Source of the DNA: a virus
Lineage: Duplodnaviria > Heunggongvirae > Uroviricota > Caudoviricetes
IMG/VR virus record: IMGVR_UViG_2568526086_000004
Coordinates: 1-36,154 of that record
DNA: 36,154 bases
Direction: 5' to 3' (one strand)
The notes under the pieces are model-generated. The model was not told where the DNA came from. It saw only the letters and a list, made by a program, of their open reading frames with translations, and searched no databases. Each line of letters begins with the position of its first letter. Positions within the stretch are counted from its first letter, which is position 1. Positions 27,333 to 27,824 of this stretch are shown here, one piece after another. Made by a program: the position numbers and the translations under genes.

Positions 27333-27566
27333 TCAATGCAGCCAGCTGTCGTCTTCCCACACCTTCTGCATAATTTTCATCACTTGTTTTCTTTCTTCGT
27401 CCAGTTGCAGTCCGGTCAGTTCCACACCGTTAGAGCTACCTTTACGGATACGGATTACCGTTTTGGGATACAGGGGGCGCAGATTGCGGTAAAGCTCGGA
27501 TTCAAGGGCGTCCAGGGTAGACTGGCTAATCTTCTGCTCTTTATCGATCATTATTTCAATGCGCAT
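27333..27566 (-). CDS. DinI-like protein
   Basis: Taking the internal start MRIEIMIDKEQK gives a 77-aa protein that aligns along its full length to E. coli DinI as I recall it (MRIEVTIAK...), including the acidic Trp-containing C-terminus (WEDDSWLH). A GAGGTG Shine-Dalgarno lies upstream of this start. Confidence 0.75.
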   Translation of the reverse strand: MRIEIMIDKEQKISQSTLDALESELYRNLRPLYPKTVIRIRKGSSNGVELTGLQLDEERKQVMKIMQKVWEDDSWLH

Positions 27567-27576
27567 AAAAGTCACC

Positions 27577-27765
27577 TCAGTTGATGACATCCATTGAGCG
27601 GTTGTATTCGTGGCTTCTGATTTTTGCCATGAGTTCATCAGTCAATTCAGAAACCCACTGCAGAGCCAGCCCCTTCTCTTCATCACTACACTCACTAGCC
27701 GCTACAAGCTTAAGAAAAAAATCAATGCGCTGGAGCTTCAAAGACTCCAAAAAATAGTCCTGCAT
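27577..27765 (-). CDS. Small SOS-controlled protein (62 aa), possible Tum-like antirepressor component
   Basis: First ORF downstream of the LexA box on the minus strand, 10 bp upstream of the DinI-like gene. Function inferred from context only. Confidence 0.5.
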   Translation of the reverse strand: MQDYFLESLKLQRIDFFLKLVAASECSDEEKGLALQWVSELTDELMAKIRSHEYNRSMDVIN

Positions 27766-27793
27766 CTTTCCTCCTATGACACCACACGCAATA

Positions 27794-27824
27794 CTGTATG
27801 TATAACCACTGTTTATATTTACAG
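27794..27824. promoter_or_regulatory. LexA (SOS) box or boxes upstream of the small-protein/DinI-like operon
   Basis: caCTGtttatatttaCAGta at 27809-27824 is a CTG-N10-CAG palindrome matching the E. coli LexA consensus. An adjacent half-matching CTGtatgtataacCAC sits at 27794-27809. Both lie about 30-60 bp upstream of the ORF starting at 27765. Confidence 0.7.

What the first reader, a model, noticed from the sequence alone, without database searches (positions are those of the whole stretch)
27333..27824. LexA-box-controlled operon encoding a small protein and a DinI-like protein (Tum-like SOS induction module)
A near-consensus LexA box (CTG-N10-CAG at 27809-27824, with a second half-site beside it) lies just upstream of a 62-aa ORF followed 10 bp later by a full-length DinI homologue with its own Shine-Dalgarno. 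This is the arrangement expected for an SOS-inducible antirepressor operon of 186-type phages. It would couple prophage induction to DNA damage independently of RecA-mediated CI cleavage. The downstream lipoprotein and accessory cassette are in the same orientation and may receive read-through.
Basis: partly seen in the sequence, partly recalled or inferred. Interest (0 to 1): 0.5.

Follow-up and report, generated by a model that had tools for sequence, protein, structure and literature searches.

The report
Known SOS-controlled prophage induction switch (tum)
This is the already-characterised switch by which a Fels-2/186-type prophage senses DNA damage: the host LexA repressor keeps a tiny anti-repressor gene (tum) and a DinI-like gene silent until the SOS response turns them on.

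Summary

- **What the window is:** a Fels-2-like (P2/186 family) prophage of E. coli.
- **The operon (minus strand, downstream of replication gene A):** a promoter (TTTACA, 17 nt, TACTGT) overlapped by a 17/20 LexA box. It is followed by a 62-aa ORF, then 10 nt later a DinI-family gene with its own Shine-Dalgarno, then a strong hairpin-plus-U terminator.
- **Identity of the 62-aa protein:** it is the split "TumA" form of the phage 186 Tum antirepressor (profile-profile probability 96.8%, E = 2e-10). It differs in only one residue (61/62) from the gene called tum in E. coli HS prophage DuoHS. The promoter, both LexA boxes and the ribosome-binding site are base-for-base the same there. In DuoHS, published Δtum and lexA(Ind-) mutants no longer induce with mitomycin C.
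- **The target:** a 186-type CI repressor, also present in the window.

1. The "second half-site" is a full second LexA box sharing one base with the first. This is the geometry and nearly the sequence of colicin operators.
2. DinI is dispensable in the family; 12 of 33 species-level relatives lack it.
3. A third LexA box sits in the spacer of a separate promoter in front of int. I found no description of this in the papers I could search.

The parts
27844..27849 (-). -35 hexamer TTTACA of the tum promoter (equivalent of 186 p95)
   Evidence: Read from the sequence. It lies 17 nt from TACTGT. TTTACA is kept in most of the 33 related loci. The layout is the same as annotated for 186 p95, where the -10 is the first six bases of the LexA box.
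27821..27826 (-). -10 hexamer TACTGT, which is the left arm of LexA box 1
   Evidence: 186 annotation: the -10 at 29044-29049 coincides with the start of the LexA site at 29044-29063.
27807..27826 (-). LexA box 1, TACTGTAAATATAAACAGTG (core CTG-N10-CAG at 27824..27809)
   Evidence: 17/20 to consensus, 0 of 100 shuffles; 23.8 bits, the best site in the window. A box is present in 31 of 33 relatives.
27792..27811 (-). LexA box 2, CAGTGGTTATACATACAGTA (core GTG-N10-CAG at 27809..27794), sharing G27809 with box 1; a colicin-type overlapping double operator
   Evidence: 17.1 bits, third best in the window. A strict double box occurs in 21 of 33 relatives. The 33-nt core aligns with colicin and klebicin promoters.
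27577..27765 (-). tum / tumA: 62-aa antirepressor, predicted two-helix hairpin
   Evidence: 61/62 identical to E. coli HS ECHS_RS04495, the gene named tum and deleted in PMC12055606. hhalign against the 186 Tum N-terminal half gives probability 96.8%, E = 2.2e-10. PHROG families cross-hit. AlphaFold2 mean pLDDT 88.5, helices 2-23 and 28-61.
27333..27566 (-). tumB: 77-aa DinI-family protein with its own Shine-Dalgarno (GAGGTGA, 27578..27572), 10 nt after the tumA stop and in a different frame
   Evidence: Pfam PF06183 E = 6.6e-23. 41% identical to the C-terminal half of 186 Tum and aligned throughout with PSP3 TumB. PDB 1GHH DinI E = 2.7e-6.
27243..27279 (-). Intrinsic terminator (11-bp stem GAGGCGAUGUC/GAUAUCGCCUU, 5-nt loop, then GUUUUUUGU), positional equivalent of 186 t95a
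   Evidence: Terminator scan. The RNA fold contains the hairpin. 186 has a partial terminator, t95a, at the same place.
34133..34708 (+). cI: 186-type immunity repressor, the inferred target of Tum
   Evidence: Pfam PF07022 (E = 2.8e-33) plus PF16452 (E = 1e-28). The Peptidase_S24 match is below threshold. 31% identity to 186 CI over 175 aa, E = 2e-37.
35049..35077 (+). Candidate second SOS-controlled promoter in front of int: TTGACA, a 17-nt spacer that is LexA box CTGGTTATACATACAG (35055..35070) plus T, then AAAAAT. int ATG is at 35102.
   Evidence: 23.7 bits, second best in the window. Conserved in diverged int modules with base changes inside the box. Identical in E. coli HS DuoHS.

Best explanation
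This is the SOS induction operon of a Fels-2-like (186/P2 family) prophage, in its split tumA/tumB form.

In the lysogen, host LexA occupies two overlapping operators that cover the -10 hexamer and the likely transcription start of a promoter just downstream of replication gene A. This keeps the operon silent. DNA damage activates RecA, LexA cleaves itself, and the operon is transcribed.

The first product is the 62-aa helical-hairpin protein Tum (TumA). It binds the 186-type CI repressor and stops it binding its operators, so the lytic promoter fires without CI being cleaved. The second product is a DinI-family protein, which most likely modulates RecA filament activity and so the strength or duration of the SOS signal. 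It is an accessory, not the switch. A strong intrinsic terminator ends most transcription after dinI.

Shown here: the sequence features, the homologies, and conservation of the operator across species. Shown by others on an essentially identical prophage: dependence of induction on tum and on cleavable LexA. Inferred by homology to 186: direct Tum-CI binding, and the DinI role.
For: - Context: the window is 100% identical to an E. coli H7 prophage and 97% identical to Salmonella Fels-2 across this region.
- Anatomy matches 186 and PSP3. 186 has gene A, p95 with a LexA site starting at the -10, tum, partial terminator t95a. PSP3 has gene A, tumA (60 aa), tumB (DinI-like).
- Operator: box 1 matches the consensus at 17/20 with 0 of 100 shuffles doing so. 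The PWM ranks boxes 1 and 2 among the top three sites in the window. A box is present in 31 of 33 species-level relatives; the two exceptions are a contig end and a tumA remnant whose reading frame stops after 20 codons.
- Homology of the 62-aa protein to the 186 Tum N-terminal half: hhalign probability 96.8%, E = 2.2e-10, collinear from Met1 over 45 residues. 186 Tum residues 7-44 hit phrog_698, the family of the window protein (E = 2.4e-5). Both proteins hit phrog_8554.
- DinI: Pfam E = 6.6e-23; PDB 1GHH.
- Target: 186-type CI with no significant S24 protease match.
- Genetics: in E. coli HS prophage DuoHS, tum is ECHS_RS04495. That is the 189-bp ORF orthologous to 27765..27577, 61/62 identical. 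The promoter, both LexA boxes and the Shine-Dalgarno are 100% identical. Δtum and lexA(Ind-) strains show no lysis or virion foci after mitomycin C (PMC12055606).
- Literature: Lemire et al. 2011 (PMC3121763) state that Fels-2 and PSP3 have tum split in two. [quoted passage not shown]
Against: - Pairwise BLASTP finds no similarity between the 62-aa protein and 186 Tum or PSP3 TumA. The homology rests on profile methods over about 45 residues.
- Direct binding of this TumA to this CI has not been shown. The two CIs are only 31% identical.
- The DuoHS deletion is in-frame, but an effect on dinI translation cannot be excluded from the text I could read.
- The paper that first described the Fels-2 split (Bunny, Liu and Roth 2002) is not in the held library, so I know it only through citation.
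Confidence: 0.9

Rival explanations
1. The DinI-like protein, not the 62-aa protein, is the effector of induction, for example by acting on RecA. On this view the small ORF is a leader or accessory peptide.
For: DinI-like genes accompany LexA-controlled antirepressor genes repeatedly: fused in 186, downstream in PSP3 and Fels-2, upstream in the Gifsy phages. The 186 record annotates truncated DinI-like Tum forms as modulating SOS induction.
Against: The gene deleted in DuoHS is the 62-aa ORF, and its loss abolishes induction. Twelve of 33 species-level relatives keep the LexA box and tumA but have no DinI gene downstream, even at relaxed tblastn thresholds. For PSP3 the antirepressor activity is reported to map to the upstream gene.
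Confidence: 0.05
2. The operon is an SOS-regulated 'moron' that serves the host, with DinI tuning the SOS response in the lysogen. It is not required for prophage induction in this particular element.
For: No experiment was done on this exact strain. P2 itself carries a DinI-like orf91 yet is not SOS-inducible (my own knowledge of the P2 literature, not tested here).
Against: The promoter, operators and TumA are identical or nearly so to DuoHS, where they are required for induction. A 186-type CI, CII and gene A are present and intact.
Confidence: 0.04
3. The LexA-like sequences are AT-rich palindromes present by chance or serving another factor, and the promoter is not under LexA control.
For: CTG-N10-CAG on its own is common: 21 occurrences in the window.
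Against: The full 20-mer is unmatched in 100 shuffles. The box is kept in 31 of 33 relatives while its flanks diverge. The same double box is the established LexA operator of colicin genes. lexA(Ind-) blocks induction in DuoHS.
Confidence: 0.01

Closest known systems
tum (ECHS_RS04495) with its DinI-like neighbour in E. coli HS prophage DuoHS; the same genes in Salmonella Fels-2 (STM2728 / STM2726.1)
   Same: Orthologous. TumA is 61/62 identical to both. The promoter, both LexA boxes and the Shine-Dalgarno are 100% identical to DuoHS. Gene order, the 10-nt spacing and the downstream lipoprotein gene are the same.
   Different: Only the cargo downstream of the lipoprotein gene differs: a three-gene low-GC cassette here, other genes in Fels-2 and RE-2010. 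Databases still label the 62-aa protein 'hypothetical' or 'unknown function'.
Phage 186 SOS operon: p95, LexA box, tum, t95a, orf97
   Same: Same position after gene A. The LexA box starts at the -10 hexamer. The N-terminal antirepressor half and the DinI-like half are both homologous. A terminator follows. The CI is of the 186 type.
   Different: In 186 the two halves are one 146-aa polypeptide with internal starts, and there is a single LexA box. Its downstream orf97 is unrelated to the lipoprotein here despite the same 243-aa ORF length. Here there are two separate genes in different frames and a double operator.
Phage PSP3 tumA / tumB
   Same: Split arrangement: a small antirepressor gene followed by a 77-aa DinI-like gene, downstream of gene A, behind a consensus LexA box.
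   Different: PSP3 tumA and tumB are in the same frame, separated by a single stop codon. PSP3 TumA belongs to the 186-like subfamily phrog_1993, not phrog_698. It has a single LexA box.
Colicin / klebicin promoters with two overlapping SOS boxes
   Same: Same geometry, CTG-N10-CA[G]TG-N10-CAG with one shared base. About 28-30 of the 33 core bases are identical (my count on the alignment; the tool reports 83.7-85.7% over 42-46 nt). Such operators are described as binding two LexA dimers and giving very tight repression.
   Different: The flanking promoter and the downstream genes are unrelated. Whether the likeness reflects common descent or convergence under the same binding constraint is not resolved.
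Gifsy-1/-3 gfoA/gftA and N15 antC (other LexA-controlled antirepressors)
   Same: Same logic: LexA represses a small antirepressor that inactivates a non-cleavable phage repressor. In the Gifsy phages a dinI homologue sits in the same operon.
   Different: The antirepressor proteins and their repressor targets are unrelated, and the gene order is reversed (dinI first) in the Gifsy phages.

Membership tests
186-type Tum SOS-induction module (split tumA/tumB form) | Own promoter downstream of replication gene A, with a LexA operator overlapping the -10 hexamer | tested here: met
   gpA (Pfam PF05840, E = 2e-127) ends at 27919. TTTACA, 17 nt, TACTGT with the LexA box starting at the -10, as annotated for 186 p95.
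186-type Tum SOS-induction module (split tumA/tumB form) | First product homologous to the N-terminal (antirepressor) half of 186 Tum | tested here: met
   hhalign probability 96.8%, E = 2.2e-10 over residues 1-45 of both. PHROG cross-hits. Pairwise BLASTP is negative, so the relationship is remote.
186-type Tum SOS-induction module (split tumA/tumB form) | DinI-like second half or second gene | tested here: met
   PF06183 E = 6.6e-23. 41% identity to the 186 Tum C-terminal half.
186-type Tum SOS-induction module (split tumA/tumB form) | Cognate 186-type CI repressor without a LexA-like autocleavage domain | tested here: met
   PF07022 plus PF16452. Peptidase_S24 only at E = 0.0065, below the cut-off. 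BLASTP to 186 CI E = 2e-37.
186-type Tum SOS-induction module (split tumA/tumB form) | Induction requires tum and cleavable LexA | not testable with these tools
   Shown by others for DuoHS, which has an identical operator and a 61/62-identical TumA (PMC12055606). Not tested on this strain.
186-type Tum SOS-induction module (split tumA/tumB form) | Tum binds CI and reversibly prevents its DNA binding | not testable with these tools
   Known for 186 Tum (Shearwin et al. 1998, as cited). No biochemical data for the Fels-2-type TumA were found.
DinI family (PF06183) | Full-length match to the DinI profile and to E. coli DinI | tested here: met
   Profile positions 1-63 of 63. 1GHH residues 1-77.
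DinI family (PF06183) | Binds RecA filaments and modulates co-protease activity | not testable with these tools
   Inference from the family only.
Colicin-type double overlapping SOS operator | Two 16-nt LexA cores sharing one base, the second beginning GTG | tested here: met
   27824..27809 and 27809..27794. Aligns column by column with three colicin/klebicin promoters. The strict pattern is found in 21 of 33 relatives.
Colicin-type double overlapping SOS operator | Binding of two LexA dimers, giving tight repression | not testable with these tools
   Described for colicin operators (PMC2994835). Not measured for this promoter.

The most novel reading that the evidence does not exclude
The prophage carries a small SOS regulon of its own rather than a single SOS gene: a colicin-grade double LexA operator on tum, plus a separate LexA-occluded promoter that drives int. 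In this int lineage the integrase has been uncoupled from the cI transcript, so that excision capacity, as well as derepression, is licensed directly by LexA cleavage. I found no description of a LexA-controlled int promoter in P2/186-like phages in the searchable literature.
Probability: 0.55. Interest if true: 0.45.

Novelty: already known. Interest (0 to 1): 0.15.

Why it matters
For the finding as given, the value is confirmation and annotation. The 62-aa gene is still labelled "hypothetical protein" in RefSeq and "unknown function" in PHROGs. Yet it is the induction switch of a prophage present in about a fifth of complete E. coli genomes (1125 of 5426) and in many Klebsiella and Salmonella phage records. 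Naming it tum/tumA would improve predictions of which P2-like prophages are SOS-inducible.

The side observations are modestly new and directly testable in the DuoHS system. They are the colicin-type double operator, the dispensability of DinI, and a LexA box inside a dedicated int promoter. They bear on how tightly and in what order a prophage commits to induction and excision.

Tried and rejected
- Pairwise BLASTP of the 62-aa protein against 186 Tum and PSP3 TumA, and of PSP3 TumA against 186 Tum, found nothing. Homology emerged only with profiles.
- I tested whether the downstream 243-aa ORF is 186 orf97, which is also 243 aa. It is unrelated. Its likely start is the ATG at 27219 (225 aa, lipobox LTGC), because the ATG at 27273 lies inside the terminator hairpin.
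- phmmer of TumA against 1.84 billion representative proteins gave only 67 hits and no fused Tum-like protein.
- The search for related loci with the diverse TumA alignment failed for lack of a conserved stretch, so I used the single protein instead.
- Bunny et al. 2002 (PMC151935) is not held.
- The Salmonella SOS-regulon paper PMC8072944 mentions Fels-2 only in its reference list.
- Pfam and PADLOC found nothing for the lipoprotein or for the first two genes of the low-GC cassette. Pfam found nothing for the third, 171-aa gene, which I did not run against PADLOC.
- The viral-contig scan with Int returned only 99-100% identical copies, which are useless for a conservation test. I used diverged phage records instead.
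- No solved structure matches TumA by sequence. I did not run a fold search, because a 62-residue helical hairpin would match non-specifically.

Full report
**Context.** The window is a Fels-2-like member of the P2/186 family (Peduoviridae) integrated in E. coli. The 761 bases around the finding are 100% identical to E. coli H7 and occur in 1125 of 5426 complete E. coli genomes. They are 97% identical to Salmonella phage Fels-2 and 98% identical to many Klebsiella prophages. On the minus strand the order is as follows:

- cI (plus strand) and a small Apl-like ORF (positional inference; no Pfam match)
- cII, accessory early genes, a Dam methylase and a PAPS-reductase-like gene
- replication gene A (30360..27919)
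- the region of the finding
- a lipoprotein gene, a low-GC three-gene cassette, and the portal gene

- CTGTAAATATAAACAG lies at 27824..27809. It is the only CTGT-N8-ACAG in the window.
- The 20-mer matches the LexA consensus at 17/20. No shuffle in 100 gave a site that good.
- The 62-aa ORF (27765..27577) has AGGAGG five bases upstream of its ATG.
- Ten bases after its stop codon, a 77-aa ORF (27566..27333) begins behind GAGGTGA. It matches the whole Pfam DinI profile (E = 6.6e-23) and E. coli DinI structure 1GHH.

**Promoter and operator.**

- TTTACA (27849..27844) lies 17 nt from TACTGT (27826..27821). The -10 hexamer is therefore the left arm of the LexA box. The phage 186 record annotates p95 in exactly this way.
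- The "second half-site" is the right arm of a complete second box, GTGGTTATACATACAG (27809..27794). Its first base is the last G of box 1.
The training sites range from 12.9 to 27.0 bits. The best unrelated site in the window scores 12.8.
- A 56-nt query spanning this operator matches about 790 small Col-type plasmids, most at 80-90% identity over roughly 42-46 nt. In all three plasmids examined, the match lies just upstream of a colicin or klebicin gene.
- The alignment shows the same CTG-N10-CA[G]TG-N10-CAG geometry with about 28-30 of 33 bases shared, while the flanks do not align.
[quoted passage not shown] Such tight control makes sense for a gene whose expression commits the cell to lysis.

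**What the 62-aa protein is.**

- Pfam has no model for it. RefSeq calls it hypothetical. PHROGs files it as phrog_698, "unknown function".
- Pairwise BLASTP to 186 Tum and to PSP3 TumA is negative.
- A 28-sequence alignment of diverged family members was compared with an 18-sequence alignment of the 186 Tum N-terminal half. hhalign gives probability 96.8% and E = 2.2e-10, collinear from Met1 through residue 45 of both.
- Independently, 186 Tum residues 7-44 hit phrog_698 (E = 2.4e-5). Both proteins hit phrog_8554. 186 Tum residues 1-61 hit phrog_1993, the family of PSP3 TumA.
- The protein is therefore a remote homologue of the antirepressor half of Tum.
- AlphaFold2 predicts a two-helix hairpin (mean pLDDT 88.5). 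No solved structure matches by sequence.

**Published evidence.**

- The PSP3 record annotates tumA ("UV induction of prophage") and tumB ("similar to dinI and 3' end of 186 tum") at the same position.
- Lemire et al. 2011 state that Fels-2 and PSP3 have tum split in two. They add that in PSP3 the upstream gene carries the antirepressor activity (PMC3121763, citing Bunny et al. 2002, which I could not open).
[quoted passage not shown] Neither mutant lyses or forms virion foci after mitomycin C.
- ECHS_RS04495 is the 189-bp ORF orthologous to 27765..27577. The proteins differ at one residue. The -35, the -10, both LexA boxes and the Shine-Dalgarno are identical base for base.

**Target.** The window's CI (34133..34708) has the 186 CI helix-turn-helix and C-terminal domains (E = 2.8e-33 and 1e-28) and no significant S24 protease match. 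It is 31% identical to 186 CI (E = 2e-37). This fits induction by sequestration rather than by RecA-stimulated cleavage. Direct TumA-CI binding is inferred from 186, not shown.

**Comparative test across 33 species-level genomes.**

- 31 of 33 have a CTG-N10-CAG box within 160 nt upstream of the tumA homologue. One exception is cut by a contig end. The other has a tumA reading frame that stops after 20 codons and a decayed box.
- 21 of 33 have the strict double box. The more distant Pantoea, Erwinia and Tatumella relatives have a single, near-consensus box.
- 21 of 33 have DinI 8-12 nt downstream. The other 12 have tumA alone, followed by hairpins and unrelated cargo.
- The invariant core is therefore the LexA box plus tumA, and DinI is an optional companion. 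This argues against DinI being the switch.

**Operon end and read-through.**

- An 11-bp-stem hairpin followed by GUUUUUUGU lies at 27279..27243, where 186 has its partial terminator t95a.
- The next gene encodes a 225-aa lipoprotein (27219..26542). It is conserved in Fels-2 and HS and unrelated to 186 orf97.
- A weak promoter-like site overlaps its start region.
- The three genes beyond it (26235..24372) have 29-36% GC against about 50% for the phage core. They are replaced by other genes in Fels-2 and RE-2010.
- Some read-through into the lipoprotein gene is possible by analogy with 186. SOS control of the cassette is not supported by anything I found.

**An additional LexA site in front of int.**

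- The scan for CTG-N10-CAG turned up CTGGTTATACATACAG at 35055..35070, which is 15/16 identical to tum box 2.
- It fills the 17-nt spacer between a perfect TTGACA (35049..35054) and AAAAAT (35072..35077), 25 nt upstream of the int start codon (35102). It scores 23.7 bits, second best in the window.
- It is conserved in int modules of Klebsiella phage 4LV2017, E. coli phage 813R9 and the ESSI2_ev phages. In the ESSI2_ev phages the DNA is about 70% identical and the box reads CTGTATAAATAAACAG, a perfect core, while the flanks diverge.
- The sequence is identical in DuoHS.
- In 186, Fels-2, ESSI-2, ST13-OXA48phi12.1 and phiO18P, int abuts or overlaps the upstream gene. That gene is cI in the first four and an unannotated ORF in phiO18P. 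There is no room for a promoter.
- In this int lineage the integrase therefore seems to have its own LexA-occluded promoter. I found no paper describing this. It is a sequence-based inference only.

**Verdict.** For the finding as given, what remains is an annotation gap. The double colicin-type operator, the dispensability of DinI and the candidate SOS-controlled int promoter are small additions worth a bench test.

Noticed in passing
window 35049-35104 (+): Candidate LexA-controlled int promoter: TTGACA, then LexA box CTGGTTATACATACAG filling the spacer, then AAAAAT, 25 nt before the int ATG. It scores 23.7 bits, second best LexA site in the window. It is conserved with base changes in about 70%-identical int modules and is identical in E. 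coli HS DuoHS. It is absent where int abuts the upstream gene (186, Fels-2, ESSI-2, ST13-OXA48phi12.1, phiO18P).
   Followed up: partly
window 27792-27826 (-): The tum operator is a double LexA box sharing one base. It is nearly identical in its 33-nt core to the operators of colicin and klebicin genes on about 790 Col-type plasmids. Whether this reflects common descent or convergence is unresolved.
   Followed up: partly
window 24372-26235 (-): Three tightly packed ORFs (231, 215 and 171 aa) at 29-36% GC sit between the lipoprotein gene and the portal gene, in the P2 cargo hotspot. None has a Pfam match. The first two have no PADLOC match and hit only PHROG families of unknown function; the 171-aa ORF was scanned against Pfam only. 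This is a candidate uncharacterised defence or moron cassette; relatives carry other genes here (an 'abortive infection protein' in RE-2010).
   Followed up: partly
window 26542-27219 (-): A 225-aa predicted lipoprotein (lipobox LTGC, phrog_1353, unknown function) is conserved directly after the tum-dinI terminator in Fels-2 (STM2726) and E. coli HS. It is unrelated to 186 orf97 although the longer ORF has the same 243-aa length. The ATG at 27273 lies inside the terminator hairpin.
   Followed up: partly
window 34724-34915 (+): A 63-aa ORF with a signal-peptide-like N-terminus and several cysteines is inserted between cI and int. An ORF of the same length occupies the same place in E. coli HS (ECHS_RS23290). 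It has no Pfam match.
   Followed up: no
L004 (PSP3) 5135-5554 versus window 27333-27765: PSP3 tumA and tumB are in one reading frame separated by a single stop codon, so read-through would recreate a 186-like fused Tum. In the window and in Fels-2 the two genes are 10 nt apart and in different frames.
   Followed up: no
L014, L016, L023, L028, L033-L039, L042 (genome loci): Twelve species-level relatives have the LexA box and tumA but no DinI gene. tumA is followed directly by hairpins and variable cargo, for example a DNA-methyltransferase-like ORF and a P-loop NTPase-like ORF (resemblances read by eye from the translations, not scanned against any family library).
   Followed up: partly
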